Assembly (NCBI RefSeq): GCF_036365525.1
Contig: NC_090371.1
Coordinates: 36,315,387-36,379,386, forward strand
Length of the DNA: 64,000 nt
Source of the DNA: Heterodontus francisci
Taxonomy: Eukaryota
Direction of reading: 5' to 3'
Below are positions 822 to 50,772 of the stretch, piece by piece. The translations under genes were made by a program, and so were the position numbers. Under the pieces are notes generated by a model that was given only the letters and a program-made list of their open reading frames with translations, searched no databases and was not told the DNA's origin. Every line of letters starts with the position of its first letter. Position 1 is the stretch's first letter.

Positions 822-1688
822 TTACATCCTGTCTCCTCACTATCCAAGGCCCAAAACACTCCTTTCAGGTGAAGCAGCGATTTACTTGTACTTCTTTCAA
901 TTTAGTATTTGCTGCTCACAATGTGGTCTCCTCTACGTTGGGAAGACCAAACGCAGATTGGGTGACTGCTTTGTGGAACACCTCCGCTCAGTCCATAAGC
1001 ATGACCCCGAGCTTCCGGTTGCTGGTCATTTCAACACCCCTTCCCGCTCCCCGCCATCCCACCCCGCTCTCATGCCCACATCTCTGTCCTGGGATTGCTG
1101 CAGTGTTCCAACGAACATCCACGCAAGCTCAAGGAACAGCATCTCATTTATCGATTAGGCACACTACAGCCTGCTGGACTGAACATTGAATTCAATATTT
1201 CAGAGCATGACGGGCCCCCTCTTTTTATGTCTAGTTATTTTTTTTTTCCTTTTTCTTTTTTATTTGGTTATTTTATTTTAGTTTTTTTAGATTGGTGAGT
1301 TTGTTTCTACTGTGCCTCCCCACTGTATCTGTCTTTTGATTTTTTTTTAATGGTTGTGCTTGGAGTGCTTTGTGCTTTACAGTCAATTCACACCCTCTCT
1401 GTACTAACACTTTGTCTTTCAGCACACCATTAACATACCGTTTGCCTTTGTTCCATGACCTTCTGGTCAGTTATTCTCTGTGACATTGTCCTATCAACAC
1501 CTCTTTTGTTATCTCTTGCCTCACCACCAACACCCCCCCCCCCACCCCCACTTTACTTGCTTAAAACCTTTTACATTCATAATATTCGCCAGTTCTGATG
1601 AAAGGTCACTGACCTGAAATGTTAACTCTGCTTCTCTCTCCACAGATGCTGCCAGAGCTGCTGAGTATTTCCAGTATTTCTTGTTTTT
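822..1688 (+). mobile_element. Penelope-like element 3' part (degenerate GIY-YIG endonuclease plus terminal repeat with hammerhead core)
   Basis: CSQCGLLYVGKTKRRL...EHLRSV...PVAGHFN and RKLKEQHLIYRLGTLQPAGLN in shifted frames; 16-bp TSD attacaggaaggacat (806-821 / 1689-1704). Confidence 0.9.
1591..1627 (+). ncRNA. Minimal type-I hammerhead ribozyme motif in the Penelope terminal repeat
   Basis: agtt-CTGATGA-a-aggtc(act)gacct-GAAA-tgtt-aact: core, stem II and 4-bp stem I; the stem III palindrome carries a C>T change. Confidence 0.7.
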
Positions 1689-2579
1689 ATTACAGGAAGG
1701 ACATATTTGCTCTGGAGAGAGTGCCGAAGAGATTTACAAGAATGTTGCCAGAGTTTGAAAGTTGCAGCTATGAGGAAAGATTGGATAGGCTAGGGTTGTT
1801 TTACTTAGAACAAAGGAGGCTGAAGGGTGACTTAATTGAGATGTACAAAATTATGAGGGGCCTAGATAGAGTAGACAGGAAGGACCTATTTCTCCTAGCA
1901 GAGAGGTCAATTACCAGGGGGCACAGATTTAAGGCGATTGGTAGAAGGAATAGAGGGGACATGAGGAAAAACTCTTTCACCCAGAGGGTGAGGTGTGTCT
2001 GGAATTCACTGCCAGAAATGGCGGTGGAGGCAGAAACCCTCAATTCTTTTAAAATGTACCTGGACATGCACCTGAAGTGCTGTCACCTGCAAGGCCAGGG
2101 GCTAGAAGGTGGAATTAGATTGGGTGGCTAGTTTTTTCAGCCAGCACGGTCATGGCGGGCTGAATGGCCTCCATCTGTGCTGTAATTTTTCTATGGTAAT
2201 GTGCTGCAAACTAATGTCAAATCAAGGGAATAATGGGAAATTATGTCAAGTTCATGATTGTACAAGCTCGGCTAAAAGCTTGAAACACCACTGACCACAC
2301 TGTGACGCGTTTATGAGAATAGAAAGCTGAAGTTGTGAGATTGTCACCATGCGTGCGTTTTGCACAGTCAAATGTCTTTCACATGAACACGTACGTAATT
2401 GGACAGGAACTATTTTCATTGGTGGTCTAAGTGAGGCAACTGGAAGAACGCTAGGATTAAAGGAGAACCTTCGAGTAGTCTTGCCACAGTAAGAGAAAAA
2501 ACAAGAATAGAAAACAGAAAAAAAGACAGAGTAAGAAGAGAAAGTCCGTTCTGCCATTCAGATTTGACACGGGAAGTAT

Positions 2580-2987
2580 ATAGAGTCATAGAGTTATACA
2601 GCACAGAAACAGGCCCTTCCGTCCATCGTGTCTGTGCCGGCCATCAAGCACCTAACTATTCTCATCCAACTTTCCAGCACTTGGCCCGTAGCCTTGTATG
2701 CTATGACGTTTCAAGTGCTCATCTAAATACTTCTTAAATGTTGTGAGGGTTCCTGCCTCTACCACCCCTTCAGGCAGTGCGTTCCAGATTCCAACCACCC
2801 TCTGGGTGAAAATTTTTTCCCTCAAATCCCCTCTAAACTTCCTTCCCCTTACCTTAAATCTATGCCCCCTGGTTATTGACCCCTCCGCTAAGGGAAAAAA
2901 TCTCTTCCTATCTAACCTATCAATGCCCCTCATAATTTTGTATACCTCAATCATGTCCCCCCTCAGCCTTCTCTGCTCTAAGGAATA
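2580..2987 (-). mobile_element. CR1 LINE 3' end
   Basis: SLEQRRLRGDMIEVYKIM...FTQRVVGIWNALP (ORF 2652..3083 -). Confidence 0.9.
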
Positions 2988-3408
2988 GCCCACATTGTTC
3001 TGTAAATTACTGGCTGAACTTGTCTTAAACATGACCTTTGGAGAACAAGTTTGTTCTGACTTTCTCTCAATAAATAGCTCCATAACTGAACTTTTGTTGT
3101 CACGTCTGATCCTGTTGTGAGTAAGGTGTTAAATCCTTACAATTCTATCCTGCATTTGCCCTATTAAGAACTAGGTAGAAGTTGGAACAGTGTTAATTTT
3201 TCAGGTCGATGACCGGTTGAAAGGTCGTTGTCCTGAAACATTGGGTAGAATTTTCTGAGGCTGGTGGAGGCAGGTTTGGTGGCAGGCTGGCCAGAAAAAT
3301 TGGAGGTATTACAACACGTTCCTGTCTCCTTCCATATTTCCCAGTGGCGGGTTGGGAGTGAAGTGGGAAAGCCCCATGGCTGGGGCAGGCAGCCAATTGT
3401 GGCAATTA

Positions 3409-3780
3409 GGGGAGGCAGTATCATAGTGGTCATGTCACTGGACTAGTAATCCAGAGGCCAGGCTAATGCTCTGGGGACATGGGTTCAAATCTCACCACAG
3501 CAGATGGTGAAATTTGCGTTCAATTAATAAATCTGGAATAGCTAGTCTAATGGTGACCATGAAACCATTGTCGATTGTTGTAAAAACCCATCTGGTTCAC
3601 TAATGTCCTTTAGGGAATGAAACCTGCTGTCCTTACCTGGTCTGGCCTACATGTGACTCTAGACCCACAGCAGACTCTTAAATGCCCTCTGAAATGGCCT
3701 CACAAGCCACTCAGTTCAAGGACAATTAGGGTTAGGTGATAAATGCTGGCCTAACCAGCGAAGCCCACATCCACAAAAAA
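3409..3780 (+). mobile_element. tRNA-derived SINE related to the tRNA-headed LINE at 52721-56016
   Basis: A/B-box-like head (catagtgg ... gggttcaaatc); body matches the LINE 5' end and the tail matches the LINE 3' end. Confidence 0.8.
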
Positions 3781-4022
3781 CAAATTTTACACTCACAAAT
3801 CATTGAGACCTAAATCTGACATCAGCAATGTAGAGGAGAAAGTGAGAAGCCTGAGGTCCACCATAGGAAAAGGCTTGTAATAATTAGCAATTCTTGAAGC
3901 TGATACTATTGATTTGTGTTTGGGGTACCTGACTTGGTGTCATTTCCTTACAGAGACATGACACTTCAGTGGGGATACTGACTTTTGTGCCTGTGAGCTT
4001 ACATAGGGACATGGGACATGGC

Positions 4023-4056
4023 AGTTCTGATGAAGGGTCACTGACCTGAAACGTTA
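4023..4056 (+). ncRNA. Hammerhead core of a split Penelope-derived repeat (remainder at 8233-8339)
   Basis: agtt-CTGATGA-a-gggtc(act)gacct-GAAA-cgtta; the continuation cgttaactctg... is found at 8233. Confidence 0.7.
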
Positions 4057-7000
4057 TTCAGGAGCAGAGAGTGCGAGCGAGTGAGCAGCTGGGAAGGTCA
4101 GTTTCAGCTTAAACTTAATTCCCTTTTGTTTTCGGCGGACCAAGGGGCTGCTGGGTATGTAAAACCCTATATATTTGGGCCGTTTCAAATAACTTACCTT
4201 TCATTGCAGCAGCTTATTCGGGAGCAGAGAGTGCGAGCGCGTGAGCAGCTGGGAAGGTCAGTTTCAGCTTAAACTTAATTCCCTTTTGTTTTCGGCGGAC
4301 CAAGGGGCTGCTGGGTAAGTAAAACCCGATATATTTGGGCCTTTTCTGAACCCGAGAAACTACATGGGCAGTGTCTCCCACCCGCCCTCCTCCTCTAACC
4401 AAAAAAAAAGGACTCGGTGGTGTGTAGATAAGGTAAGGCTTTTCCTACTTTTTTTTTAATCGTGTGATTAGTAAAAACTTTTCGTTCCTTTTTCATTTTT
4501 TCTAAGTTTCAGACTAAGTTAAGCTGAAGATTAAAAATGGCAGGAGATCTCAGACCCGTGTTATGCTCCTCTTGCTCAATGTCGGAGCTCAGGGACACGG
4601 CTGATATCCCTGACTCCTTCACGTGCAGGAAGTGTGTCCAGCTGCAGCTCTTGTTAGACCGCATGACGGCTCTGGAGCTACTGATGGACTCACTTTGGAG
4701 CATCCGCGATGCTGAGGAGGTCGTGGATAGCACGTTTAGCGAATTGGTCACACCGCAGATTAGGATTGCTGAGGGAGAAAGGAAATGGGTGACCAAAAGG
4801 CAGAGAAAGAGCAGGAAGGCAGCGCAGGTGTCCCCTGCGGTCATCTCCCTCCACAACAGGTATACCGTTTTGGATTCTGTTCAGGGAGATGGCTCACCAG
4901 GGGAAGGCAGCAGTAGCCAGGTTCATGGCACCGTGGCTGGCTCTGCTGTTCAGAAGGGCGGCAAAAAGACTGGAAGGGCTATAGTCATAGGGGATTCGAT
5001 TGTAAGGAGAGTAGATAGGCGGTTCTGTGGTCGAAAACGAGACTCCCGAATGGTATGTTGCCTCCCAGGTGCATGGGTCAGGGATGTCTCAGATCGGCAT
5101 TCTGAAGAGGGAGGGTGAACAGCCAGTTGTTGTTGTGCACATAGGCACCAATGATATAGGTAAAAAAATGGGATGAGGTCCTACAAGCAGAATTTAGGGA
5201 GTTAGGAGCCAAGTTACTACCTCAGAGGTAGTAATCTCAGGATTGCTACCAGTGCCACGTGATAGTCAGAGTAGAAATGAAAGAATAGTCAATATGAATG
5301 CGTGGCTTGAGAGATGGTGCAGGAGGGAGGGGTTCAGATTTTTGGGACACTGGGACCGGTTCTGGGGGAGGTGGGACTATTACAAATTGGACGGTCTACA
5401 CCTGGGCCGGACTGGAACCAATGTCCTTGGGGGTGATTTTGCTAACGCTGTTGGGGAGGGTTTAAACTAATGTGGCAGGGGGTTGGGAACCAAATGAGGA
5501 GGTCAATGGACAGTAAGGAGGTAGTAACGAAAGCCTGTAAGGAACTAGATAATGAAGTCAGCGTGACTAAGGGGAAAAGTAGGCAGGGAGCAGATGATGG
5601 ACGCAAAGGGACTGGTGGTCTGAGGTGCATTTGTTTTAATGCAAGAAGTGTAGTAGGTAAGGCAGATGAACTTAGGGCTTGGATTAGTACCTGGGAGTAT
5701 GATGTTATTACTATTACTGAGACTTGGTTAAGGGAAGGGCATGATTGGCAACTAAATATCCCAGGATATCGATGCTTCAGGCGGGATTGAGAGGGAGGTA
5801 AAAGGGGTGGAGGAGTAGCATTACTGGCCAAAGAGGATATCACAGCTGTGCTGAAGGAAGGCACTATGGAGGACTCGAGCTGTGAGGCAATATGGGCAGA
5901 ACTCAGAAATAGGAAGGGTGCGGTAACAATGTTGGGGCTGTACTACAGGCCTCCCAACAGCGAGCGTGAGATAGAGGTACAAATATGTACACAGATTATG
6001 GAAAGATGTAGGAGTAACAGGGTGGTGGTGATAGGAGATTTTAATTTTCCCAACATTGACTGGGATTCACTTAGTGTTAGAGGTCTAGATGGAGCAGAAT
6101 TTGTAAGGAGCATCCAGGAGGGTTTTCTAGAGCAGTATGTAAATAGTCCAACTCGGGAAGGGGCCATACTGGACCTGATGTTGGGGAATGAGCCCGGCCA
6201 GGTGGTTGAAGTTTCAGTAGGGGACTACTTTGGGAATAGTGATCACAATTCCGTAAGTTTTAGAATACTCATGGACAAAGATGAGAGTGGTCCTAAAGGA
6301 AGAGTGCTAAATTGGGGGAAGGCCAACTATACCAAAATTCGGCAGGAGCTGGGGAATGTAGATTGGGAGCAGCTGTTTGAAGGTAAATCCACATTTGATA
6401 TGTGGGAGGCTTTTAAAGAGAGGTTGATTAGCGTGCAGGAGAGACATGTTCCTGTAAAAATGAGGGGTAGAAATGGCAAGATTAGGGAACCCTGGATGAC
6501 AGGTGAAATTGTGAGACTAGCTAAGAGGAAAAAGGAAGCATACATAAGGTCTAGGCGGCTGAAGAAAGACGAAGCTTTGGAAGAATATCGGGAATGTAGG
6601 ACCAATCTGAAACGAGGAATTAAGAGGGCTAAAAGGGGTCATGAAATATCTTTAGCAAACAGGGTTAAGGAAAATCCCAAAGCCTTTTATTCATATATAA
6701 GGAGCAAGAAGGTAACTAGAGAAAGGATTGGCCCACTCAAGGACAAAGGAGGAAAATTATGTGTGGAGTCAGAGAAAATGGGTGAGATTCTAAACGAGTA
6801 CTTTGCATCGGTATTCACCGAGGAGAGGGACATGACGGATGTTGAGGTTAGGGACAGATGTTTGATTACTCTAGGTCAAGTCGGCATAAGGAGGGAGGAA
6901 GTGTTGGGTATTCTAAAAGGCATTAAGGTGGACAAGTCCCCAGGTCCGGATGGGATCTATCCCAGGTTGCTGAGGGAAGCGAGAGAGGAAATAGCTGGGG

Positions 7001-7902
7001 CCTTAACAGATATCTTTGCAGCATCCTTAAACACGGGTGAGGTCCCGGAGGACTGGAGAATTGCCAATGTTGTCCCCTTGTTTAAGAAGGGTAGCAGGGA
7101 TAATCCAGGTAATTATAGACCGGTGAGCCCGACGTCAGTGGTAGGGAAGCTGCTGGAGAAGATACCGAGGGATAGGATCTATTCCCATTTGGAAGAAAAT
7201 GGGCTTATCAGTGATAGGCAACATGGTTTTGTGCAGGGAAGGTCATGTCTTACCAACTTAATAGAATTCTTTGAGGAAGTGACAAAGTTGATTGATGAGG
7301 GAAGGGCTGTAGATGTCATATACATGGACTTCAGTAAGGTGTTTGATAAGGTTCCCCATGGTAGGCTGATGGAGAAAGTGAAGTCGCATGGGATCCAGGG
7401 TGTACTAGCTAGATGGATAAAGAACTGGCTGGGCAACAGGAGACAGAGAGTAGTAGTGGAAGGGAGTTTCTCAAAATGGAGACGTGTGACCAGTGGTGTT
7501 CCACAGGGAGCCGTGCTGGGACCACTGTTGTTTGTGATATACATAAATGATTTGGAGGAAAGTATAGGTGGTCTGATTAGCAAGTTTGCAGACGACACTA
7601 AGATTGGTGGAGTAGCAGATAGTGAAGGGGACTGTCAGAGAATACAACAGAATATAGATAGATTGGAGAGTTGGGCAGAGAAATGGCAGATGGAGTTCAA
7701 TCAGGGCAAATGTGAGGTGATGCATTTTGGAAGATCCAATTCAAGAGTGAACTATACAGTAAATGGAAAAGTCCTGGGGAAAATTGATGTACAGAGAGAT
7801 TTGGGTGTTCAGGTCCATTGTTCCCTGAAGGTGGCAACGCAGGTCAATAGAGTGGTCAAGAAGGCATACGGCATGCTTTCCTTCATCGGACGGGGTATTG
7901 AG
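4056..7902 (+). mobile_element. Near full-length CR1 LINE, 3'-truncated: tandem 5' UTR repeat, ORF1 (Cys zinc finger + SGNH esterase, 4537-5470), ORF2 (APE endonuclease + RT, from 5470)
   Basis: CSSC...CRKC and IGDSIVR...DGLHL in ORF1; FNARS, ITETW, GDFN, SDH, PQGAVLGP, FADD in ORF2; frameshifts in ORF1, premature TGA at 5788. Confidence 0.95.
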
Positions 7903-8628
7903 TCAGAGGGAAGGGAAGGGGAAGAAAATCTGGAGGGGCGTTGATACCCATGAGTTGCTGGAGTTTGTGTTCCTTAACACCTGAAAGGAAGAGAAAAATT
8001 TTTTGTTAATGCGTCAAATTAGGCGAAGGATGAAATGAAACTGTAACCTGGACAGCTTTGAGATAGGGTGAGTCAGAACTGCTGGAAAGAGAGGTTGAGT
8101 GTGTGCCTGTGCCAGCACATAGCTCTGAGTTCTTAATTAGCTTTCTTCTGCAAAGAACTACTGGAGGGCCAGCTATTCATCAGTTCTGAATCTCCACCCA
8201 GACACCAAAAACCAAGGTGGTAAGATTCCATCCGTTAACTCTGTTTTTCTTTCCACAGATGTTGCCTGACCTGCTAAGTATTTCCAGCATTTTCTACTTT
8301 TATTTCAGATTTTCCAGCATCTGCAGTATTTTGCTTTTGTAGATAAAAGTTATCCAAGCTGAAAAAAGACTTTAATCTCATCAGTCCAGGTTGGATTCAA
8401 ACCCGTATGCTTCTCAAATATATAAATTGTTAACAGCAATGTGATTTCCTTTATTTCCACAATCTTCAAATAATAAATAAACAGTAAGAAAGTTTACATT
8501 TTAGAACAAATATGCTGCAAGATTAAATAAGTGCAAAAATAACTTACAAATGTTTGATTGTAATTCCCACAGTTTAGCAGACTTGACCAGGTTACAAGCA
8601 TTAAATAAATATAGAGTTAATGGTAATA

Positions 8629-8751
8629 TAAAAGCAAAATACTGCGGATGCTGGAAATCTGAAACAAAAACAAGAAATGCTGGAATCACTCAGCAGGTCT
8701 GGCAGCATCTGTGGAAAGAGAAGCAGAGTTAACGTTTCGGGTCAGTGAACC
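8629..8751 (-). repeat. Penelope-derived short repeat, truncated within the hammerhead
   Basis: Reverse complement of the 1600-1690 terminal repeat plus extension; lacks CUGANGA. Confidence 0.8.
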
Positions 8752-8945
8752 GGTTGTCATCATCTCCACGGGTTGCCAATAGAAAAGAGGAACATTATAA
8801 CCAAAACGATTTTTCTCCTAATGTTTTCCTACAAGCATTCCAGTGACCAGCGTGTAACAGATGTGATTAGTCATTGAACTCGTGTAATAGAAGCCCAAAG
8901 TTGTCGTCAAATATAGAATAGCTTCCAGCAAACATCAACAATATC

Positions 8946-9301
8946 AGTTCCGAAGAAGGGTCACTGACCCGAAACGTTAACTCTGCTTCTCTTTCCACAG
9001 ATGCTGCCAGAACTGCTGAATGATTCCAGCATTTCTTGTTTTTAGTTTAGTTTAGTTTAGAGATACAGCACTGAAACAGGCCCTTCGGCCCACCGAGTCT
9101 GTGCCGACCACCCATTCATACTAATCCTACACTAATTCCATATTCCTACCACATCCCCACCTGTCCCTATATTTCCCTACCACCTACCTATACTAGGGGC
9201 AATTTACAATGGCCAATTAACCTATCAACCTGCCAGTCTTTGGCATGTGGGAGGAAACCGGAGCACCCGGATTTCCAGCATCCGCAGTATTTTGCTTTTA
9301 T
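8946..9301 (+). mobile_element. Penelope-derived hammerhead repeat with a nested truncated HE1 SINE (9044-9270, - strand)
   Basis: CCGAAGA-a-gggtc(act)gaccc-GAAAcgtt; 12-bp TSD atcaacaatatc (8934-8945 / 9302-9313). Confidence 0.8.
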
Positions 9302-10605
9302 ATCAACAATATCGGGTCAGGATTAGTGCTGCACAAATACTTAGATAACAGATAATGGAGAACAGTCGAATCCTTCTTAGCAACAACAGTGAAAAATCAG
9401 TTATGTGCAGGCAATAGAACGACCCTGGCTATGCAATTGTTCAATTGTAACCTCTTCGGAAATGTTGGATGTATTCCCATGAAGAATGTTACCTGACTCT
9501 GAGTGACGATACTTGGAGCCTTTGATGATTACAGCCTGAAGAAGAGGTCGATCACACCTTCTCTACTTGTGTTTTATCTCGTTTCCTGTCCATCCGATCG
9601 CCAAGCAGAGCTGGGGAATGAACATCGGCCTCAAAGTAAACATTTGATGAACACTAACAGTCACTAGTTTTTTGAGTGGGACGCAGCGTAGCATCAATGG
9701 AAAATCTTATCATGTGGGTGGACATGCGTAAAATTACAAATATCACTGGAACGAATGCCATTAAGATCTGAATATCGATTCTGCAAGTAAGATTTCATTG
9801 CAGATACAGTGATGGAGATTAAAAGTAGCTGTGCTGTATAACTCTATGACTATTATTTATCTCACAGTTATGTGGCCCCATTTTAAATATTTCTGGGACC
9901 TGGCATATAAGCAGAAATCTTCCAAGCAAATCCCTGGTTAATGAACAATATTGTTGTCAATTTATCAATCGGAGCTCCTAGGAATATTAAGAAAAGTGTG
10001 GCGTGTTGACGTTATTCTACTTGCCTGCATACACTAATTTCTGCTTCAACAGGAACAGTTACAATTCGGAGAGGAAATCCAGCCACGAGATGTCTTGGTG
10101 GGCTGACTGGCTTTCTGCTTCGTGCTTCTACAACCAGCCGAGTAGGTAAACACAAACCAGTTTATTTCCGCTGCGAAGACGTTTACCAGTAGGCTACAAG
10201 GATAACTTTCAAATGTGCGAATGGTGCAGCTCATTACTGGGCAGCCTGGGAAGGTATCGAACACTTTTAGTGACTACCAGACAAGCTGTGAGAAACATGA
10301 TTAGAATCACATTTATGATGGTCCATCTTTGGCACGTTCTCACGAGGAAGATTTTGCAATTATAATATAAACTTCAGCTCTGGGGCAGAATGTAAACACT
10401 AGAGGCCTGTAGCAATGAATAGGGAGAGTGTAACTGTTGCAAACAGGTCCAAGGTAAATGGGCGATGCCAAAAAAAGCGGCCAATAGAAAGCGAAATTTG
10501 GGAATTTTTGTTCAGAGGAACTCAGCCTACATCGTATTTTTTAATGTCTAATATCCATGTTTACCTTTTCCTAAATATATCTAACGCATCTAATCGGTAA
10601 TTACC

Positions 10606-11028
10606 TTCTCTCTCTTTGGCCTCCTTGTCTCGAGAGACAATGGGTAAGCGTCTGGAGGTGGTCAGTGGTTTGTGAAGCAGTGCCTGGAGTGGCTACAAAG
10701 GCCAATTCTAGAGTGTCAGACTCTTCCACAGGCACTGCAGATAAAATTGGTTGTCGGGGCTGTTACACAGTTGGCTTTCTCCTTGCGCTTCTGTCTTTTT
10801 TCCTGCCAACTGCTAAATCTCGGGGACTCACCACTCTTTAGCCCCACCTTTATGGCTGTCCGCCAGCTCTGGCGATGGCTGGCAACTGACTCCCACGACT
10901 TGTGATGAATGTCACAGGACTTCATGTGGCATTTGCAGACATTTTTAAAGCAGAGACGTGGACGGCCGGTGGGTCTGATACCAGTGATGAGCTCACTGTA
11001 CAATGTGTCCTTGGGGATCCTGCCATCT
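10606..11028 (-). mobile_element. RTE LINE 3' fragment
   Basis: YSELITGIRPTGRP...CSACGR, homologous to the C-terminus of ORF 13351..16542. Confidence 0.9.
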
Positions 11029-12585
11029 AATCAGTAAATACCTAACAAGGGAAATATTGCAGAGCTATGGGACGAAAGAGCAGGCGAGCTGGACTAATCG
11101 GATAGTTCTTCCAAAGAGCCGGCCTAGATACAACGGGCCGAATGGTCTCCTTCCCTGCTGTATCAATGTATGATTCTAACGCTAGCCCCCGAGTTTTGTC
11201 ATATCTTTGGCGTATTTTAGAGTCAAATTTAACGCAAGGCTTCAGTTCCTATTTGTGTAATTATAGTGGCTGGAGAAAGGCAACACGTTTTATTCATTCC
11301 CTCCTCTTCACTGCGCTGTACCCAGGCTGGAAATGAAATTATTGAGAGGTATTCCAGGAAATCTGGACGAATGCTCTTAGTGTTTGGGTAAAATTCGCAA
11401 CATAAAATGGTATTTATCTAGCAAACTGTACAAGTTCAACAAGGAGAATATTGAGCATGTAACTTACTTCTTGCCACAAGTGCATGTTATAACTTTACGA
11501 AGAAGGTCATTAGGAAGCGGCCTTACAACGAGCAATTCCTAAGATGCCTGGTTAACATAAAATATGGCATCTAGAGAGAAAATATATAAACAGGAGGTGA
11601 TGGCAATCTTCATTTTATTCTGATAGGCCGTGCTATTTTTTTCCAATTGTGCTCAATAAGGATATAAATCCACGGTGGGCCTTGGTCGAGCAATAAACCA
11701 TGGCATGCAGTTGACAACCATTCTGAAATTAATTATCGGCATTAATTCGGTTTGAAAATTACAGTTTATCGCCAGTGTAGAAGAAAAATCTCAACACTTG
11801 TGGGCGAGAACACTGACAGTAAAACTCCATTACTGGTCGGGTAGTCAACTATATCTCAATGGAGACGGGGAAGACAGAACAATGCAGTAGGTTTACTTTA
11901 TCTGAGCCTCAGATACTTTACTTAAGCCTCAGTTCAAGATGGCTCCTGGGCTGGAAGCTCCCTTGCGGTTCAACTCTATCCATGGCCATCTGCTCCCATC
12001 CCTAACGTTTTCTCCCCCAATCTGCCCTCTTAAACTGTTTAAATTCCCCTGGCTCTTTAAATCAGTTCATTTTAGCCCTATCTAAAAGTTAACAGTTAGT
12101 TTAGTGTGTGTTACCTGGGCCCACTGCCCTCCCCCAGCCACACCTGCTCTTTGTTTTCTCAATGAAATTGATCCGGTTGAAACTGACGAGCACAGCTGCC
12201 GATACTTCAATCTCCGATCCTGCTGTCTTCACAGTCCAGAGTGTCTGCAGCCACGGCATGCGGTAAGTCCATTGAGGTGAAGAAGGAGCTGCGGGACCCG
12301 AGAGAAGTCCTGTGAAAAGGTGCCCCGAACACCCAAAACATCCACGAACGGCCCCCCCGGCCGCAACTTCAAAGCGCCCGCGGGAGATGTTTCGGAGAGC
12401 ATCTGCAGCGCACTGTCGGCAATGCTGCATGCCTTTATTTAAACCACTGCAAAAAAAAAACCTTTAGCAAATGTAATCACCTCTAAGTCTGCCAAATGAT
12501 GCTTCACCTCCCGAAGGACGTGGATGAGCTTTCCGGACGTCGATGGTGGGCACTGAGGAAATGGCTTATTACCTGCACCAGATTC

Positions 12586-16594: not shown

Positions 16595-17303
16595 TATTAA
16601 GTGGAAAGCGAAAGGTGTGTAACAGCATTGAACGGAAAACGCTACGCGTGGTAAGTGGTATGTTAAGAAAACAGGAAGTAAAACCGTAAACAGATGTGTG
16701 AAGAGATCATTGTAATACTGACACATCTAAATGTTTTCATATTACAGAACAAGCGTTAAGGCTATGATAAAGGACGTCTGTTTTTGTCGAGGAAGAACAG
16801 GAATAGACAGAATGTGAAAATGGATTAGGAGAAGGGCTGCTTTGCTACTATAAAGCAATCTTGTCTGGATTAATTGAAGAGGTGACACCTATATCATCAA
16901 TGGATATTTGGAAACGATTATAGATAGCTAGAGAAAAAGAAAAAATCTGAAGTGGAATCACTAAATCATCATATTATACCTCAAAGTGCAAAACCATTTG
17001 AACGTTATTATCTGAAATTTGATACTTATAAACAGCTACTAATCACAGCTGAGCAGATAGAAAACTTACCAATCAATACAAAAGTAGCATCGTTTTAAAA
17101 AGGAATTTGGCAGAAAATCAATCACTTCCCATTGGTTTCTACTGATCCTGATAAAAGATTCTCTGCCCAATGTGAATAGCTGGGGATTGATGACTAGCTA
17201 TCAATCTAGAGAGAAAGCTTCTCGCAACAATTAGCTTCTAGTTCAACAACTACACAACTTATATTTTGCTTTGCACCTATAGAGACATCTTACCACTTTA
17301 CAG

Positions 17304-17589
17304 TAAAATCAAAGCAAAATACTGCGGATGCTGGAAATCTGAAATAAAAACAAGAAATTCTGGAAATACTCAGCAGGTCTGGCAGCATCTGTGGAGAGAG
17401 AAGCAGAGTTAACGTTTCAGGTCAGTGACCCTTCTTCAGAACTAGCAAATTTTTATTTGCTTATAACCTTTTACATTTTTAATATGTGCTAGTTCTGAAG
17501 AAGGGTCACTGACCTGAACCGTTAACTCTGCTTCTCTCTCCACAGATGCTGCCAGACCTGCTGAGTATTTCCAGCATTTCTTGCTTTTG
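17304..17589. mobile_element. Inverted pair of Penelope-derived hammerhead repeats inserted as one unit
   Basis: - copy about 17304-17445 (intact core), + copy about 17455-17589 (GAAC variant); 14-bp TSD ttaccactttacag (17290-17303 / 17590-17603). Confidence 0.85.
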
Positions 17590-18858
17590 TTACCACTTTA
17601 CAGGATGGTGAACAAAGAATGGGCAAACAGCAGACAAGAGAAAGGAAAAAAATAGGTTTTGGTAACAACGCAAAATCACAATAACGGGCTTCTGAAAGCA
17701 GAGAGTGAGGGGACCAGGTCGAGATAATTAAGGAAGGGGGGAGAGGGGGGCAAAGTGGCTGAAGGAACTGGGGAGCACAGAATGAAGACCCAGGACAGGG
17801 GAAGAGAGTGCAACAATAAGCATGGAGCTAGAGGAGATTGGGGATGTAGGGGAGGGCAGAACCATAAAGGTATTTAACGATGAGATTCAGAATCTTAAAA
17901 GTATATTCTGGTCCGCCACAAAGAGCAATGAAGTTTGACAATGATAGGACGATAAGGGCATGGATTTTAATAAGAGTGAGAAGATATGCTACAAGTTCCA
18001 GATGACTTGCAGCTTACGGAGACCAAGAAGAGGAACATCGGAGGAAAAAAAGCCGTGAAGTGATCAGGGGGTGCATAAGGATTTTAGCAATAGACAAAGA
18101 GCAATATTTCAAAGGCGAAAGAAAACATTATTTGTGATATATTGCAAATGGGGAAGAAAACATCGTTCTCCCTTTCCTCAAGTCAGTGCCTTTATACCTA
18201 TTAGGATAGGATTACAAATACGTGAACACTCCTATCATGATCTCATGTAAAATATAAATATTATATTAATTTATTATAAGAACAACATGCGTTTCAATTT
18301 ACCATGAGTAATACAGTTGTAGATCCACTAATATGACCAAATAATATGGGAATCAGAGATTAAAGATACTAATTACTTTTGAAATTCAATGGAAATCGGG
18401 GAATTAGGGCAAGACTGTTTCTTGAGAAGAAAACAGCGGAGAGATCAGCTTTCATATAACATTGAGCAACAACTCTGCTAAGGAACAATCTAATGCAAGT
18501 AATGTAATTAGATTCAACCTTGTGGCAGATTTTGGATGAAATAATTTTAAAATAAACACAATTTGTTTTAAGCAAATTAAAGAAAATATGGAATAGAAAA
18601 ATAAAGAAAATCCGGGGATCAGCAGAAAAACAGAACATGAAGAGGGTGTAAACGATGCCTACCTTACAAAAGGATGGTTATTATATGGTTAATATTGAAG
18701 CCTTAACCATGAGTAAATCCATAGGTTAAATATAATTAGAGCAATATTTTTACTAACATTTTGCCATGGACTATAGATTTAGACTCCTAATAAGGTGCAC
18801 ATGGAATGATGGAATGTGGCTCCAAGTCCACAGTGATAAACTCCAGAGCTCAATACTT

Positions 18859-22843: not shown

Positions 22844-23454
22844 GTAAGTAATAATGCTCAATATTTTGCCTTCTCTTATTCGTCTCGCAAAGATTATGAT
22901 AATTTGACTATCTTAAAGAGGGGGTAGGAAAATACATAAATTTCGAACTGGCAGGAGACGGGCGGCAGATTACAACCGCGGCTTCACAAACAAAAGCAAT
23001 TGTCTTTACATCGATTCGTGCCGTTACTGTAATTCGAGATTTCAGTGGGTTAGCTATATTTTGTTAGATTTAGACTATCCGCTAATTTCCCTGCATCTTG
23101 TTGCAAAGGAGTTCCTGAAAGGGAAAAGACTTGCAGGACTGTGGGTTTAGAGCAAAGCAGTGGGATTATTTGGACAGCTCTTTTAAAGGGTGGAACGTCC
23201 TCCTGTTCTGGATGATTCTATTGCATTACCCTGGAAAATTCCATTCGTTGATAAATTATGTGGGGATGGGATTTCAACGCTGGCCTGGGAACAGAGCAAG
23301 TGTGAAAGATGGTCAGTTTACATCAACTTGGTAACGCTTGATATTAACATGCTTCGTGCTTTACAGTGTGAGTCTCACGGTGACGGATTCGTTGCTTTTC
23401 ATCCAAAAACTCCACACGAGGACTCGCTAATGTTAATGTTTGTATGCTTCGCAG

Positions 23455-28500: not shown

Positions 28501-31172
28501 ATTTTTTTAAATTAAAATTTATACAGAGCTCAGGCTGAAGAGTGTCTGATTAAATGGCATTGACTTGACACATTACATATACTTGACACATTAACTCTTT
28601 CTCTCCCCACAGATGCTGTTTGACTTGCTGATAATTTCCACCATTTCCTGTTTTCATTAAGGAAAATGTCTTACTTGGTTTACAGTTATGAGAGCTCCCT
28701 CACTACACCACATTGGTGTAAAAAGGAATCTTAAAAAGTAGCTTCAAATTCCCTGGAAAAAAATATCCTCCACTAATGCAATGTGAAGTAGCACATTTTA
28801 GGAAAAAAGAACAATACCTGCAGAACTCTTAACAAAGGGGAGAAACAAAGAAATCTTGGATACAGATACAATAACCTTTAAAAGTGGATTTGCTAGATTT
28901 TATTTATGAGGGCTTTGAATATACAAACAAGAAAATGTTAAGACATTGGTTTGGCTGTAGTTTGGAGTCTCTGCAGTTTTGGGCATCCAGTTGTAGGAAG
29001 GATATCAGAAACACTGAAAGATTATAGTGAAGATTCACTAGAATGTTATCAATAATGAAAGGCCACAATTATGAAGAAAGGTTTGAAAATTTGTGCCTTT
29101 CTAACTGGAGCTGACAAGGTTAAAAGAAGAATCTAATAGAGATTTTTATTATTATACATATTTTGAGGGAATTAAAAATGAAAAATTGCTTTCATTGGCT
29201 AGTTGGTAACATAGGAGTAAAGACACAGGATTATCAAGAACAATGAGAAAAGCTAAAGAAAATGTTTTCACACAACAGATTATTACAATAAATGCTTTGC
29301 CAATTGTTCAAAAGGCAGTTGGATATGTATTCCAGAAGGGGGCGGGGGGAAGGATATGGAGAAAGGGCAGGAAAGTGGTATTAGCACAGATAAATCTAAC
29401 TGAAGAGTATAGCATAGTCTGAGCCCTCAGTAAAGTAATCATTCTTTCCTATCTTTAGATTTATTTTAAGAGCACAAAAATGCACAGAACAAGAACAGCA
29501 TTTGGTTCATCATTCCATAAACCACATACCATCCAATTTATCCTGTGTCAATCCCATTTAAACTTTGGAGGGAACATGCTACATACTGCTGTCTATTCCA
29601 AAAATAATCAAACAAAACTCCAAAATATTCATTCATGCTCACAACTCCACTGCTTAACCCTAACCATGTATGAAACCATATCTGGACCAGTCTATCCATT
29701 GTGTCCCAGATTACTATTGTTTACTTACTAAGAAATGGTGAATGCTTTGCATGACACCATGATAAAGGTCAAAGGTTGCCAGGTGCACAATTATAGCAGC
29801 AACAATTTTTCATTGTTCACTTGCTCAAAATCTTAAACCTTTGAGCATTACCTAGTTCTTAGTATTTTACTTGGAAGGGAACAATTTTTAACAATCTATC
29901 AGTTCTGAGGTTCTGGATGTGATGTGTAAAAAAAATAGAAGGAAGGCACCTCTCTACAAGGGGAGGGAGTTCATGGATTAGGCCATATTTGGTTGGGAAT
30001 GAAAGGTTATAGGGATACATACAGATTAAGATAATCAAATACTCCATGGAATGTATTGCTGAAGTCAAGAGCTGAGAAAGTGTGCCTACAGAAGGTGGTA
30101 AATCATGACTGGATTATAGAAATGTTCAAATGAATAAATATTCAGGAATTTTGCTTGATTGTCTTTGGGGATCAGATTATATTTGTCCAAAACTTTCCCT
30201 CAGATGGTCAAATTAATCAAATTTATACTAAGAGCAGGCTTGATAGGCTGATTGGGCTTTTCTTGTTCCAGACATTCTCAAGTTCATATTCTATTGCTAA
30301 ACTGCTGTTGCAAGTCTTTTAGCAGTGCACTAAAGAATAGTCTTGGCAGAGACCAGAAGACATCTGTGGTGCATTAACAAAGAAAACAAAAAGCAGGATT
30401 AATATTATTTTCACAAATATTCTCAAACACACTTCGATTGGCTCTATTTTGATTTGCAAAAATACCAACTGAAGAACAACACATTTCCAGTAAGTTTATA
30501 CTAACCAAGATGATTCCTTCATTTGAGTTCACATTTTTATAAACTGAAAACTATATAAGATTAATTCAGTCTACACCCAAATTTACTCAATAGTGCAGAA
30601 AACACTTACTATACTGTTCTATCTAAATATAAATCATACTAGTGCACCAATATTTAATCATTTAACAAATAACAAATTTGAGCACAGCTGTGAGGAGTTA
30701 TTTTAGTGGTTATGTAAAGGATCAGTTTAGTTTTAAATGTGTCTTTCAAGTTTTGTATTACGTAAACTAATATAAGTCACATCAGAGAATATTGAGTCAA
30801 CCAGGATTCGACCCTGGAATGTGAACAATATTTTAAATGCACAGCAATGATACTCTCTGTAAAACAATTTGTTCTGATATTATTGTATTTCAGGGATTGA
30901 CCTGTATCAACACTTCATTCAGTTTTCAGAAAATCACTTATTTAAATGTGATGCATGTATTTAAAATACATGAAATAAGTTAGCCTCCAAATTCATCTGA
31001 CAATTTTTCTTTACTATGCCTATCTTACTGTGCATCACCAATGTTTTGCAATTTAGTTTTTTTTTGTAGGCAAGGAACATATTACTGCCTAAAGTCAGTT
31101 AAAAAACTATAATATTTTCAAGAAAAAGAAAATTGTTTTTTACTTAACATTCTTTATTCATTATTTATTCAG

Positions 31173-38122: not shown

Positions 38123-39037
38123 TTACAAAATGTGATCTCCGCCTTTTAGATGGAAGAAGAAATCGCCCTCCACCTTTCACTCTTTAAAGGGTAGGAGGGA
38201 TTACATGGGGGTGAGGGAGGGGGGGAGGGGACGGGTGGTGCTGTAGCTTTATTGTACCAAAGGCTAAATGTTCGCTTTAAATTACTTTCCGGCTGTTGTA
38301 CTAATCCCGGGGAGGGTGTTTACGATTGGGATTTCAGACCGTGTGTGTGGGACAAGGCTAAGGTTCTGTTCACAGCCAATCTGTTATCATCTTCATAAAG
38401 ACTCTGCTGGAATTAGCAATGGGTGGGGAGGGGGGAAAGTGTAGAGAAGAACAATTCAGGTCGTGAGTTAGGATTTGATTTTAAATATGCCTTTTTATTG
38501 TGAACATATGGTATGAAATACTGGAATTTCCGCATTCTTTCAGAGCCTATATCAAAGTTTATGAATTATTTGATAAGCTTTTAAATGCCTTTTACTAGTT
38601 CGTTTCTGATAAACCTGAGAAATCCTGTCTTTAGCCATATACCAGGCTGTTCGCCCTTGGCGCTTGTCGATTCTGGACTTTTGGCTAACCTGAAATGATT
38701 TGAATGTATCTCTTGTGATATTAAACCTTGCAGTAAACACCCGCCCGGCTCTGCTTCGTCTTTGTGCCGCTTTACAAGCCGCAGCAGATGACCGCCCGCA
38801 GACTGTCAGCACTGCAAACAATTGCTTTCGTTTTTGCACCGAGGTATATAACCTCGTCAAACGATCCGTAACCAATGTGTCTTAGAGCAAATATGAGAGT
38901 CAGATCAAGACTATAAGTCTCTGGTTTAACAATAAGCACTGTCTCTCCCCATCTTACACAGACCTAATCGGACATTTCTTCCGAAATCTGGTTTTGTGAT
39001 CACTTTGAGTGCAACAAAAGAGATAGAAATATGAATT

Positions 39038-39169
39038 AAAAGCAAAATACCGCCGATGCTGGAAATCTGAAATAAAAACAGAAAGTGCTGGAAATAGTCA
39101 GCAGGTCAGGCAGCATCTGTGGAGAGAGAAGCAGCGTTAACGTTTCAGGTCTGTGACCCTTCATCAGAA
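39038..39169 (-). mobile_element. Penelope-derived hammerhead repeat
   Basis: Minus strand tt-CTGATGA-a-gggtc(aca)gacct-GAAAcgttaac; 15-bp TSD atagaaatatgaatt (39023-39037 / 39170-39184). Confidence 0.85.
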
Positions 39170-39574
39170 ATAGAAATATGAATTGTTCGTTAAAAAAAAA
39201 AATTGCGTCAGGAAATCATAAAGACTGTAAGGCACGGGTTGGAGTGAGAGATAAAATTCCTACTGCGAGAGGGAGACCATGTCTACACGCTGGTGCAAGT
39301 TCCAGATGTGAAAGCACTTGGTGTAGTGAAGCATCCTCAAATTTGCATCACCTTAAATATAATAGAAAATAAATGTAAAGATACCCCCTCCGCCCTAAAT
39401 ATCTCACACATACAAATGACGGCATTTTTTGGAAGCGGAAGTTGCGGCAGTCTCTTCCAACTGCAGATAAAAATAACCATAACGAAATGACAGCTGAGAC
39501 TCCCAATACATAGGAACATCAGAGCGGGAGTAGGCCATTTTGGCCCCTGCCCCATTCAACTAGCTCATAGCTGA

Positions 39575-40797: not shown

Positions 40798-41448
40798 TCA
40801 TAAGATCATAAGAGCTAGGAGCAGGAGTAGGCCGTCCGGCCCCTCAAGCCTGCTCCGCCATTCAATAAGATCATGGTTGATCGTTTCGTGGACTCAGATC
40901 CACTTACCCGCGCTCCCACCGTATCCCTTAATTCCTTTATTGTTCAAAAAGATATCTACCTTAGCTTTAAAGACGTTTACTGAAGAAGCGTCAACTACTT
41001 CACTGGGCAAGGAATTCCATAGATTAACAACCCTCTGGGTGAAGAAGTTCCTTCTTAATTCAGTCCTAAATCTGCTCCCTCTAATCTTGAGGCTATGCCC
41101 TCTTGTCCTAGCTTCACCTGCCAGTGGAAACATCCTCTCTACTTGTATCTTATCTATCCCCTTCATGATTTTATATGTTTCTATAAGATCCCCCCTCATT
41201 CTTCTGAACTCCAATGAATATAATCCCAATCTACTCAGTCTCTCCTCATAAGCCAACCCCCTCAACTCCGGAATCAACCTAGTGAACCTCCTCTGCACCC
41301 TCTCCAGTGCCAGTATATCCTTTCTCAAGTAAGGAGACCAAAACTGCACACAGTACTCCAGGTGCAGCCTCACCAGTACTTTATACAGCTGCAACATAAC
41401 CTCTCTGCTTTTAAACTCAATCCCTTTAGCAATGAAGGACAAAATTCC
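40798..41448 (-). mobile_element. CR1 LINE 3' end (different subfamily)
   Basis: ORF 40894..41532 -: HLEYCVQFWSP...FFTQRVVNLWNSLP. Confidence 0.9.
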
Positions 41449-41586
41449 AAAATAAAAGCAAAATACTGCGGATGCTGGAAATCTGAAACAAAAACAAGAA
41501 ATGCTGGATTCACTCAGCAGGTCTGGCAGCATCTGTGGAAAGAGAAGCAGAGTTAACGTTTCGGGTCAGTGACCCTTCTTCGGAAT
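41449..41586 (-). mobile_element. Penelope-derived hammerhead repeat
   Basis: Minus strand CCGAAGA-a-gggtc(act)gaccc-GAAAcgttaac. Confidence 0.85.
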
Positions 41587-41742
41587 TGGATTTGTCGTAA
41601 TTTGATAACGTTAGATCTGATATAGATAACCCCCCAGGGTCCCTGCGTTGCTGGTTACGAGTTGTTCGCTTTTATTTGACACAAGGCGCTTGGATATAAC
41701 ACACACTAGAACATAATGCTCACAAAACGCTGTTCCTTTCAG

Positions 41743-42106: not shown

Positions 42107-42205
42107 AAGTTCTGAGGAAAGGTCACAGACCTGAAACGTTAACTTCGTTTCTCTTCACAGATGCTGCCAGACCTGCTGAGTATTTCCAGCACTTTTTGTT
42201 TTTAT
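42107..42205 (+). mobile_element. Penelope-derived hammerhead repeat
   Basis: aagtt-CTGAGGA-a-aggtc(aca)gacct-GAAA-cgtt-aactt (5-bp stem I). Confidence 0.85.
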
Positions 42206-44087
42206 TTTTTAAAGGTTATTTTCGTTGTTGGAAACAATCTTTGTGTAATTCACAGAAATCAGCACAAGTCTGGCAGCAGATGTTTATTAAAAATGTGTTG
42301 GGAGTTATTCAGATTATATAAAAATTCTCATGCAAACTGATGGGGTGCTGGGATCGTTTTATGTTGGTAACTTTGATGTGGAGTTGAATGAATCCTGAAT
42401 CATTACATAGGAAAGGTTTTGATTTCAGCTGAACACGAACATGATCTGAGGTTATCTATCAGAGGCCATGGGAGGGTGTCTTAATATTGAACTACTTTTG
42501 TTGGAAATCGTTTCACCGTATTTCCTGAAGTTCTCATTCATGCAAAGGATTTGCTTTTTTCTGGCCTCGTGTGAATGGTGCCATCATTAGCGGCCATGCC
42601 TTCAGCAGGCCGGGACTTAAGCTCTGAAATTCCTTCCCTAAACCTCTCTACATCACACTTTCTTCCTTTCAGGCACTCAGTAAAATATACTTCTATGACC
42701 AAGTCTTTGGCCATCTGCTCTAATATCTGCTTATGTGGCTCGGTGTCAAATTTTGTTTGATAATACTCCAGTGAAACGCCTTTGGAGTTTTAGTGCGTTC
42801 TCAAGGCGCTATATAAATGCACGTTGTTGTTATTTGTTCTCCTGTTTGGACTGGACAGCAGAGAGGTAAATGTAGACAATTTCTAACAAGCAAATACATT
42901 GGTTTTAAAATACAGTTGTGTGGGTATCTCCGAACTTTAATGAATTCGGTGATTGGTGGTGGATTTGTGAGGAAGTTGATGTCTGGTGAATGTCGAGGAT
43001 CTTGTCTCCTTCATTGAGATAACTGGACGGAGAGGTTTTGCTCAGTTGAATGATGCTGCTGATGACTTGTTCCCAGGAAACCCTCCTGGTGTGCATTGGA
43101 AACCTGCATGTCTGCCTTTTAATTTACAAGTGAGCTTACAGGGCAGAAGGAGGCCATTCTGCCCATCGTGTCTGTGTTGTTCTTTGCTAAAGTAATACAA
43201 AACTATCTCACTGATCCTCATAACCTTATTTCTTCCTTTACTTTAATGTTTAAGGGATTACCACCACCCCCACCCCCCCCCCCCCCCCTTTAAAAGGTGC
43301 TGTGGACCCTCACTCAACGCTTACGCTTATAGTCATGCTGGGCAGCTGCAGAAATTCCCCGCATTCTGTCCAATTTTGCCCTGAATCTCATTTATTTTAA
43401 AATGTATCGTTATAAAACGATTAATTAATCGTTGCATTTCAAAGTTAATTGTAATGGATGCATTGGCAGAATGAACAAAGACAATGATCCAACCTGAACT
43501 AAAACAGAAAATGCGGGAAATACTCCACAGCTCAGGCAGCATCTGCAAGGGTAGACGGGTAAGATTAGCATTTGAAGAACTCTGACCCTTGGGCGGAACC
43601 CAGTCTGAGCTTGTTTTCACTTGGTTGGAATAAAAACACCACGGTTGTGAATTCCTCAATCCACGTGTACTAACACGGCATCTGGAGATTTAGTGTACAC
43701 TACTCACCGTGCGAATTATTCAAATTAGGGACATACCATTTCTTTAGATTCAAGATTTCCACTGAAATTTAACAAGGTTTTTATTTTTTAAAAGAATTTA
43801 TAAGTGAATCTGTCGCCGAAAATAGCCAACAAGTAATCGTTGACAAAAAAAAAGTCCAGGGGAGGAATAAATCTACATTGTCACCTAGGTCGCTATGGGT
43901 GCAGACGGAATAAAGCAGAAATGCGTAGCAGGTTAGTCAGTGAGTGAAAACTCTTTCACCAGTCTGGGTGTTACTAAGATTTCTGCGTTTATTTCAAATT
44001 TTGATTAATAGGATCATAGAAATCATTTATTGTAATAACAGTAAAGTTTCTTGCTGTATCCACAAAGCAAGAGCGCTCCAACCAAGA

Positions 44088-46803: not shown

Positions 46804-46840
46804 AGTCCCGGAGGCGATGTCCCCACCAGTTTCGGAAAAG
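46804..46840 (+). CDS. Second CD8-type cytoplasmic exon (KSRRRCPHQFRK)
   Basis: Follows a 97-nt intron (107 nt in CD8A); phase 1-2; RRRCxHQFRK shared with CD8A exon 5. Confidence 0.88.
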
Positions 46841-49727: not shown

Positions 49728-49795
49728 TTCTTTCTTCTTTGGCCTCCTTATCTCGAGAGACAATAGGTAAGCGCCTGGAGGTGGTCAGTGGTCAG
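49728..49795 (-). mobile_element. RTE 3' stub
   Basis: ggcctccttatctcgagagacaat...gcgcctggaggtggtcagtgg. Confidence 0.75.
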
Positions 49796-50633
49796 TTATA
49801 ATAATAATTGATAGTTAATAGTGGCTGTTTCAGGAGCTAGTGCCAGCATTAACACACTGACTTTCATGACCTCTTCCTACTCAGAAATTTCTGTGATTCT
49901 ATTGTGCCCTGGATATATTTCCACCCGCTGTGGACGCTGTAAAACCTGAGATCAGTTTGTCGAAATATCTAAGACCAATACCTGATTATAGATTCTTCCA
50001 ATTTTCTGGGGCTACTGAAAGAGGTTTTCAATTAATGTATTAATCATAGTAAGATGTAGCTAGCATGATAAGTCCAAGGGTAAAAAGGACACTTAAGTGA
50101 CAAATGTAATTAAAATGGTTTAGATTTGATTGTTATATTTGTTCAACTACAATTAAATTCCCTACAGTTTAGAAGGTTGCAGAGTGATCTAATTGAGTTC
50201 TTTACATAGGGATCCATAGAATCATAGAATGGTTACGACACAGAGGAGGCCATTCAGCCCATTGTGCCCATGCCAGCTCTCTGTAAGAGCTAGCTAGTCA
50301 TTTCCTCTGATGGGATAATCCAGAACAAAAATGTGTAATCTTAAAATTAAAGATAAGCAATTTAGGAGCAAAAATCAGGAAACACCTTTTCATACAAAGG
50401 TTATGGAAATCTGGAATTCACTCCATCAAAGAGCTGGAAATGCTGGGTCTGTTGAAATTTTCAAGACAATGATCAAAGTACTTTTGTAAGGTCAGTGTGT
50501 CAAGGGATATGGAGCAAAGGCGAGTAAATAGAGTTGAGGTACAGATCAACCATAATCTAATTGAATGGCAGACAGGCTCAAGAGGCTGAATGGCCTATTC
50601 CTGTTCCCGTATTCCTAAAATTACTAAAGAAAT

Positions 50634-50772
50634 TAAAATAAAAGCAAAATACTGCAGATGCTGGAAATCTGAAATAAAAACAGAAAGTGCTGGAAATACT
50701 CAGCAGGTCAGGAAGCATCTGTGGAGAGAAAAGCAGAGTTAACGTTTCAGGTTTGTGACCTTTCATCAGAAC
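50634..50772 (-). mobile_element. Penelope-derived hammerhead repeat
   Basis: Minus strand gtt-CTGATGA-a-aggtc(aca)aacct-GAAAcgttaac (one stem II mismatch). Confidence 0.8.

What the first reader, a model, noticed from the sequence alone, without database searches (positions are those of the whole stretch)
1591..50772. Family of short Penelope-derived elements carrying minimal hammerhead ribozymes, with stem II covariation visible in this window
Seen: about ten copies (1591, 4023, 8740 partial, 8946, 17409, 17491, 39140, 41555, 42107, 50740) share agtt-CUGANGA-A-stemII-GAAA-CGUU-aacu. The base pair closing stem II varies as G-C (8946, 41555), G-U (4023, 17409, 39140) and A-U (1591, 42107, 50740), while N7 and the loop vary freely. 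Stem III is reduced to the palindrome AACGUU. The 1591 copy is attached to a GIY-YIG coding fragment, tying the family to a Penelope-like element. Known: Penelope-like elements carry minimal type-I hammerheads proposed to cleave as dimers through a palindromic stem III. Inference: these 100-140 nt units, several with their own 12-15 bp TSDs and 5' ends just before the core, behave as a ribozyme-bearing non-autonomous family. All have an extra A after A9, and two have a CCGAAGA core variant.
Basis: partly seen in the sequence, partly recalled or inferred. Interest (0 to 1): 0.7.

Follow-up and report, generated by a model that had tools for sequence, protein, structure and literature searches.

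The report
Penelope retrotransposon stubs carrying minimal hammerheads
The short repeats are real: they are the clipped ends of a very abundant Penelope-type jumping gene, with intact copies in this genome, that carries a known kind of tiny hammerhead-ribozyme motif, and they are likely dead-end by-products of its copying rather than a family that spreads on its own.

Summary
The motif is real: 58,326 exact matches in the 6.0-Gb genome, control 0. It is the minimal type I hammerhead motif in the terminal repeat of a Neptune-type Penelope-like element with many intact 924-codon RT+GIY-YIG frames. This association is published.

The 'non-autonomous family' reading is not supported. Short and long copies share their common haplotypes and the same two 3' ends, the published 'tail'.

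The ends are informative. 58 of 123 copies reaching the motif stop at its 5' edge, with no pile-up at the cut site. Only 1 of 21 full-length insertions stops there on the second pass. Head-to-head pairs share one target duplication (14 of 17) and use one of each 3' end (14 of 15). Likely cause: internal priming, then run-off at the 5' end of uncut RNA; that RNA end was not observed.

The closing pair A-U/G-U/G-C tracks subfamilies, not CpG decay, but it is one pair and not significant. The CCGAAGA 'variant' is the core of the intact lineage. This scan noted the same kind before on other DNA.

The parts
822..1688 (+). 5'-truncated long copy: end of RT-EN frame (GIY-YIG fragment 821-1196), 3' region, hammerhead motif 1591-1627 (A-U closing pair, palindrome broken), tail to the first 3' site
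   Evidence: tblastn against an intact 924-aa frame, 80-91% identity, E 2e-48; 16-bp duplication at 806-821 and 1689-1704
4023..4056 (+). motif only (+1..+34, G-U pair); ends where a LINE begins
7885..8130 (-). old internal fragment of the same element's frame (unit positions 469-715, 80% identity)
8233..8338 (+). tail-only copy (+30..+134), no core; may or may not be the other half of 4023
8624..8751 (-). young short copy +13..+140, core missing
8946..9301 (+). young short copy (CCGAAGA, G-C) starting exactly at +1, split by a later insertion at about 9049-9269; 12-bp duplication at 8934-8945 and 9302-9313
17300..17591 (.). one head-to-head insertion: minus arm -10..+144 and plus arm -39..+101 (G-U lineage), one 14-bp outer duplication
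28585..28654 (+). old tail fragment, core missing
39034..39169 (-). short copy +3..+138 (G-U), 15-bp duplication at 39023-39037 and 39170-39184
41449..41585 (-). young short copy +3..+139, 100% identical to an intact element's end
42108..42207 (+). short copy +1..+102 (A-U)
43491..43545 (-). old tail fragment
50634..50772 (-). short copy +2..+140 (A-U) with a small inverted remnant at its 5' junction

Best explanation
The short units are 5'-truncated insertions of a Neptune-type Penelope-like element, likely made when its reverse transcriptase primes at one of two internal tail sites and runs off the 5' end of an uncut RNA that likely begins at the first base of the hammerhead's stem I. Numbering: +1 is the A of AGTT, and the predicted cut is at +33/+34. 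Shown here: the element, the two 3' ends (about +100 and +137), the pile-up of 5' ends at -4..+5, no pile-up at the cut site, and single-event head-to-head pairs. Inferred: internal priming at those ends (by analogy with the anole element); an RNA 5' end at +1; head-to-head pairs made by priming from both nicked target strands on one template; short units being dead ends because they lack what lies upstream of +1 and downstream of the tail; longer-than-unit copies coming from another template pool (circular or multimeric RNA, or a strand jump). The hammerhead is predicted to cut weakly, as a dimer or with protein help.
For: Element: intact 924-aa frame with RT and C-terminal GIY-YIG (Pfam E 6e-6 and 9e-4, both under the curated cut-offs), DKG, CX4CXXC linker and CXXC inside GIY-YIG; head-to-tail unit of 3,292 nt with the motif at each joint. 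3' ends: 72 at +95..108 and 75 at +133..148 of 166 copies, alike in short and long copies. This matches the two internal start sites and optional 30-40 bp tail of PMC11167929. 5' ends: 58 of 123 at risk stop in 9 positions, 0.052 per base against 0.006 just downstream and 0.004 just upstream; blind 400-kb sample 6 of 21. Only 6 of 164 end at +33..+37; PMC11167929 likewise found uncut RNA to be the main substrate. Second pass: 1 of 21 intact-frame insertions stops at -4..+5, p 0.0002; 5 of 25 against 65 of 130 for -4..+13, p 0.008, so the motif is not simply a road-block. Pairs: one outer duplication in 14 of 17, one of each 3' end in 14 of 15 scorable (p 0.0005), same tail haplotype in 13 of 17 against 2.5 expected. 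An A+T-rich TATA-like word lies at about -30 and YCAGTT at +1 in most long copies (the labels TATA and initiator are recalled).
Against: No RNA 5' end was observed: only contigs were available, which cannot show starts. No excess of a cap-type extra G: G precedes AGTT in 2 of 10 single copies, while T replaces the +1 base in 7 of 8 copies that begin at +2, which this model does not explain. A simple start at +1 predicts unit-length copies ending at +1, yet 20 of 31 intact-frame insertions run further upstream, so a second template pool has to be assumed. The TATA-like word is weak and varies. Fold-back self-priming would also give identical arms. End positions come from local alignment and are good to about 3 bases. 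Most of the sample was picked by an exact tail match and leans young.
Confidence: 0.6

Rival explanations
1. Structure-driven stop or fold-back: the enzyme or the new cDNA stalls and snaps back at the hammerhead's hairpins and palindromes early in synthesis, giving short units and inverted pairs without any RNA end at +1 (close to the self-priming idea of PMC3846280).
For: Inverted remnants or partners at 37 of 93 short against 2 of 32 long copies, p 0.0003. Junctions often sit on short palindromes. 22 further ends fall inside the motif (+6..+29). Arms are near-identical.
Against: Ends peak just after the structure has been copied, not on entering it. Full-length copies pass the same motif 20 of 21 times, though an enzyme far into synthesis may behave differently. 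Fold-back alone does not predict one of each 3' end.
Confidence: 0.2
2. One reading: the 100-140 nt units are a self-propagating non-autonomous family, transcribed from an internal promoter and mobilised in trans.
For: Own target duplications in 15 of 65 single short copies against 0.45 in swapped controls. Sharp ends. The Drosophila virilis Penelope promoter is internal (PMC2377424 passages), so a unit starting at +1 could be self-sufficient.
Against: Common haplotypes are shared by short and long copies; nearest-neighbour distance short-short 0.044 against short-long 0.040. Short copies occur in all three age classes. No head-to-tail arrays of short units were met in the copies examined. In the anole element about 55 nt downstream of the priming sites are required, which tail-ended units lack if the analogy holds. 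Power to see recent short-only bursts in 58 copies is low.
Confidence: 0.12
3. The 5' boundary is made at DNA level by the element's GIY-YIG endonuclease cutting an intermediate near +1.
For: The Drosophila enzyme recognises its own terminal repeat, and endonuclease resolution has been proposed for the tail (PMC8557442 passages).
Against: It would be expected to cut the second repeat of full-length intermediates too, which is rare. No test here.
Confidence: 0.08

Closest known systems
Minimal hammerheads (min-HHR) in pseudo-LTRs of metazoan Penelope-like elements (Cervera and De la Pena 2014, PMC4209133)
   Same: Type I layout, 4-bp stem I, extra base between 9 and 10.1, palindromic 15.2-16.2 with no loop, location in the terminal repeat, most copies single and truncated.
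   Different: Stem II is 5 bp rather than the 7-8 bp of Schistosoma; 10.1-11.1 is G-C only in the young lineage; the intact lineage has U4C, a change not mentioned in the parts read; copy number is far above the 4,000-9,000 quoted for coelacanth and frog.
PAc, Poseidon element of Anolis carolinensis (Frangieh et al. 2024, PMC11167929)
   Same: Two internal end points 30-40 nt apart, downstream of the hammerhead; uncut RNA apparently the template; both target strands used.
   Different: Neptune-type linker; the main ATG lies at +173, past the tail, with a 30-codon short frame over the tail; the end points are U-rich, not AC-rich; a 5' pile-up was not mentioned in the text read.
Canonical EN+ Penelope-like insertions, Neptune/Nematis type (PMC8557442, PMC3846280)
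   Same: RT plus C-terminal GIY-YIG, CX2-5CXXC linker, partial tandems, adjacent inverted 5'-truncated copy, optional tail at one end, target duplications.
   Different: Nothing of kind; this adds counts for the ends.
Non-LTR retrozymes (bioRxiv 10.64898/2026.07.22.740005)
   Same: Non-coding, hammerhead-bearing, derived from Penelope terminal repeats.
   Different: Defined by head-to-tail repeats with a hammerhead in consecutive units; the short units here are single or head-to-head.

Membership tests
min-HHR of metazoan PLEs | Core CUGANGA...GAAA...UH around stems I and II | tested here: met
   intact in 72 of 125 copies covering the core, 22 with U4 and 50 with C4; U4C departs from the canonical core
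min-HHR of metazoan PLEs | Extra base between 9 and 10.1 | tested here: met
   A at +12 in 122 of 126
min-HHR of metazoan PLEs | G10.1-C11.1 closing pair | tested here: inconclusive
   G-C 67, G-U 31, A-U 22 of 125; met in the young lineage only
min-HHR of metazoan PLEs | Palindromic 15.2-16.2 allowing a dimer | tested here: met
   C at +30 and G at +31 each in 114 of 126; energy-minimum co-folds did not give the ACGU dimer
min-HHR of metazoan PLEs | Lies in the terminal repeat of a PLE | tested here: met
min-HHR of metazoan PLEs | Self-cleavage as dimer or with protein | not testable with these tools
   no assay; no pile-up of DNA ends at the cut site
EN+ Penelope-like element, Neptune/Nematis type | Single frame, RT then GIY-YIG with CXXC between GIY and YIG; DKG motif | tested here: met
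EN+ Penelope-like element, Neptune/Nematis type | CX2-5CXXC linker | tested here: met
   residue 790; criterion
EN+ Penelope-like element, Neptune/Nematis type | Partial tandems, inverted 5'-truncated copies, optional tail | tested here: met
EN+ Penelope-like element, Neptune/Nematis type | RT tree placement in Neptune rather than Nematis | not tested
   no reference set fetched
Non-LTR retrozyme | Head-to-tail non-coding repeats with hammerheads in consecutive units | tested here: not met
   copies single or head-to-head; the only tandems seen are 3,292-nt coding units; no genome-wide tandem search
Non-LTR retrozyme | Circular RNA | not testable with these tools
   contigs only
Independent non-autonomous (SINE-like) family | Own lineage with diagnostic variants | tested here: not met
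   58 short against 56 long copies; low power for recent bursts
Independent non-autonomous (SINE-like) family | Own target duplications | tested here: met
   15 of 65 against 0.45; also expected for truncated copies
Independent non-autonomous (SINE-like) family | Own promoter within the unit | not testable with these tools
   none

The most novel reading that the evidence does not exclude
The insertions are a fossil map of the Penelope replication cycle. A capped linear RNA starting at the hammerhead's first base yields strong-stop-like stubs. A dimeric enzyme primes from both target strands at the two tail sites of one RNA to make the head-to-head pairs. A second, endless template (a ribozyme-made circle or a multimer) yields the longer-than-unit copies. 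The most successful lineage does this with a U4C core that would slow cutting.
Probability: 0.35. Interest if true: 0.55.

Novelty: new member of a known kind. Interest (0 to 1): 0.3.

Why it matters
Penelope-like elements are the sister group of telomerase, and how they finish an insertion, and what their hammerheads do, is unsettled. The motif itself is an expected passenger of a known class. The value is in the numbers. A rough 330,000 ends (95% range 207,000-501,000, from 22 in 400 kb) and many intact frames give exact, testable positions for the RNA start, the two priming sites and the cut site, and a natural series of closing pairs and a U4C core to assay.

Tried and rejected
1. Splice-acceptor explanation of the pile-up (an intron ending at CAG|TT, as the D. 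virilis intron ends at helix I). The predicted spliced junction gave 7 genomic hits, but none continues into the upstream repeat; 5 of 7 are head-to-head junctions and the other 2 run into unrelated flank. The matching microhomology-deletion junction gave 0 hits. Rejected.
2. CpG decay as the source of G-U and CUGA: rejected for the older lineage; it does explain the few T forms inside the young lineage (5 and 4 of 66).
3. In vivo cleavage fossilised as 5' ends at +34: no pile-up. This does not exclude cleavage followed by circularisation.
4. Cap-derived extra G: not enriched.
5. RNA evidence: 23 runs hold the stretch, all as contigs; laying 4 showed cover but no usable starts or joints. Variation of the motif in other species remains unexamined.
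6. Rfam: only microRNA-model matches on the 17.4-kb inverted pair, below gathering scores, an effect of the hairpin.
7. Other hammerhead families: the general descriptor found only this family in 1.04 Mb.
8. Folding: the stem I+II fold is at or within 0.1 kcal/mol of the minimum for four 37-nt pieces (the fifth was cut one base off register). In +1..+140 stem I has probability only 0.14-0.18, stem II 0.57.
9. Lunse et al. 2017 is not held; only its title was seen. It may already list this variant.

Full report
Observation. All listed sites hold the motif or part of it. A general minimal-hammerhead descriptor finds 4 complete hits in the window, 7 in 400 kb taken blind and 37 in 580 kb, most of it picked by tail matches, against 0 in each of 5 shuffles; all belong to one family. 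A 33-letter degenerate pattern has 58,326 exact matches in G000 (6.01 Gb) and a 27-letter tail word 90,606, controls 0. The blind sample gives 22 ends in 400 kb, roughly 330,000 genome-wide. The window, with 12 tail-bearing ends in 64 kb, is denser than that average.

The parent element. The 1591 copy continues upstream into a GIY-YIG fragment and is bounded by a 16-bp duplication. An RT query found many 924-codon open frames among 150 scored matches. In 33 fetched loci (31 distinct insertions scored; two were overlaps) the unit is 3,292 nt with the motif at each joint. The protein has DKG, YIDD, a CX4CXXC linker and CXXC between GIY and YIG, the marks of Neptune/Nematis in PMC8557442 (passages); no tree was built. 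With +1 at the A of AGTT: core +5..+11, extra A +12, stem II +13..+25, predicted cut +33/+34, a 30-codon short frame over the tail, main ATG +173.

Ends. I collected 146 tail-anchored copies (window, neighbours and loci picked by exact tail match) and 22 from the blind sample. One blind copy failed to align, one segmental duplicate (L083) was dropped, and two copies cut by a locus edge were left out of the 5' count, leaving 166 and 164. 3' ends fall in two groups, 72 at +95..108 and 75 at +133..148. PMC11167929 (parts 1-2 of 4 read; figures not seen; 3 supplementary text files searched without hits) shows such paired ends to be internal start sites of reverse transcription. 5' ends: 58 of 123 at risk stop at -4..+5, about eight times the per-base rate just downstream and thirteen times that just upstream; 6 of 164 end at +33..+37. 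The blind sample alone gives 6 of 21. Intact-frame insertions cross the same motif a second time and only 1 of 21 stops there; 20 of 31 are longer than one unit.

Head-to-head pairs. Of 17 short pairs, 14 share one outer duplication of 8-15 bp, 13 share the tail haplotype (2.5 expected), and 14 of the 15 with scorable ends use one of each 3' site. Several long inverted insertions show the same. Inverted copies with a tail on one side are published qualitatively (PMC8557442 and PMC3846280, passages); the latter proposes self-priming.

Not a separate family. Short (58) and long (56) copies share 8 of the 9 commonest haplotypes, no column separates them, and short copies are no closer to each other than to long ones. 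Both classes occur in the old A-U, middle G-U and young G-C groups. Own duplications (15 of 65, control 0.45) are expected of any insertion. Recent short-only bursts could be missed at this sample size.

Covariation. Sorting copies by tail letters outside the motif shows A-U, G-U and G-C to be subfamily states with falling divergence (0.067, 0.027, 0.006), suggesting the path A-U to G-U to G-C. The mismatch A-C is seen once in 125, and the strand asymmetry excludes CpG decay. That is two events at one pair; the other stem pairs are near-invariant, and on the 9 window copies the scores do not beat shuffles. The young lineage also changed U4 to C; every motif listed in the 20 intact-frame loci has it. 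PMC3088659 (passages) says U4C considerably lowers activity in vitro yet permits viroid infectivity.

Mechanism. Shown: element, ends, pairs, subfamily series. Inferred: priming at +100 or +137 near the front of a linear uncut RNA, run-off at +1, integration as a dead-end stub or, when both target strands prime, as a head-to-head pair; longer copies from circular or multimeric templates, as PMC4209133 proposes for more-than-unit copies (parts 1-2 of 4 read). Against: no RNA end observed, no cap-type G, an unexplained T before copies starting at +2, weak promoter words, and the need for a second template pool. The splice-site alternative was tested and failed.

Known and new. The hammerhead-Penelope link, the extra base, the palindrome and the abundance of single truncated motifs are in PMC4209133. 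Retrozymes as Penelope derivatives are in the 2026 preprint (parts 1-2 of 5). Searches listed no paper on a 5' pile-up at the motif or on one-of-each priming, but the library is partial, Lunse et al. 2017 was not held, and Dfam/Repbase were not available. PMC2377424 and PMC6765202 were seen as passages; PMC12602865 had none of the terms sought. The scan's index lists 416 findings with these words in at least 29 genomes, several with the same run-off and U4C readings. My reading was noted before that call, and those notes are not counted as evidence.

Verdict. Real feature, new member of a known kind; first reading partly supported; interest 0.3.

Noticed in passing
window 1-11659 and G000:C1:36305387-36315386: At least 21.6 kb (the window's start plus 10 kb upstream) recurs at 99.9% identity about 92.3 kb downstream: a recent segmental duplication or an assembly duplicate.
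   Followed up: partly
window 23187-23780 (+): Open frame with an immunoglobulin V-set domain (Pfam E 2e-13), probably one exon of an immune-receptor gene; not identified.
   Followed up: partly
window 13333-16542 (+): Uninterrupted 1,069-codon endonuclease-RT frame of an unrelated LINE, apparently intact; clade not tested.
   Followed up: no
window 5219-7838 and 57640-60255: Two copies of one LINE, 97-99% identical, in opposite orientation.
   Followed up: no
window 9049-9269: A short repeat with several other copies in the window has inserted into the tail of the 8946 copy.
   Followed up: partly
L165 and L176 (5' ends at about -102): Two of 31 intact-frame insertions begin within a base or two of each other at a second GTCAG word upstream of the motif; possibly another RNA start, possibly chance.
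   Followed up: no
L161, unit positions +34..+173: Three pyrimidine tracts ending in CAG precede the short frame, the tail and the main ATG, resembling splice acceptors; no donor or spliced form was found.
   Followed up: partly
window 41430-41600: The 5' flank of the 41587 copy resembles the reverse complement of its 3' flank instead of a direct duplication.
   Followed up: no
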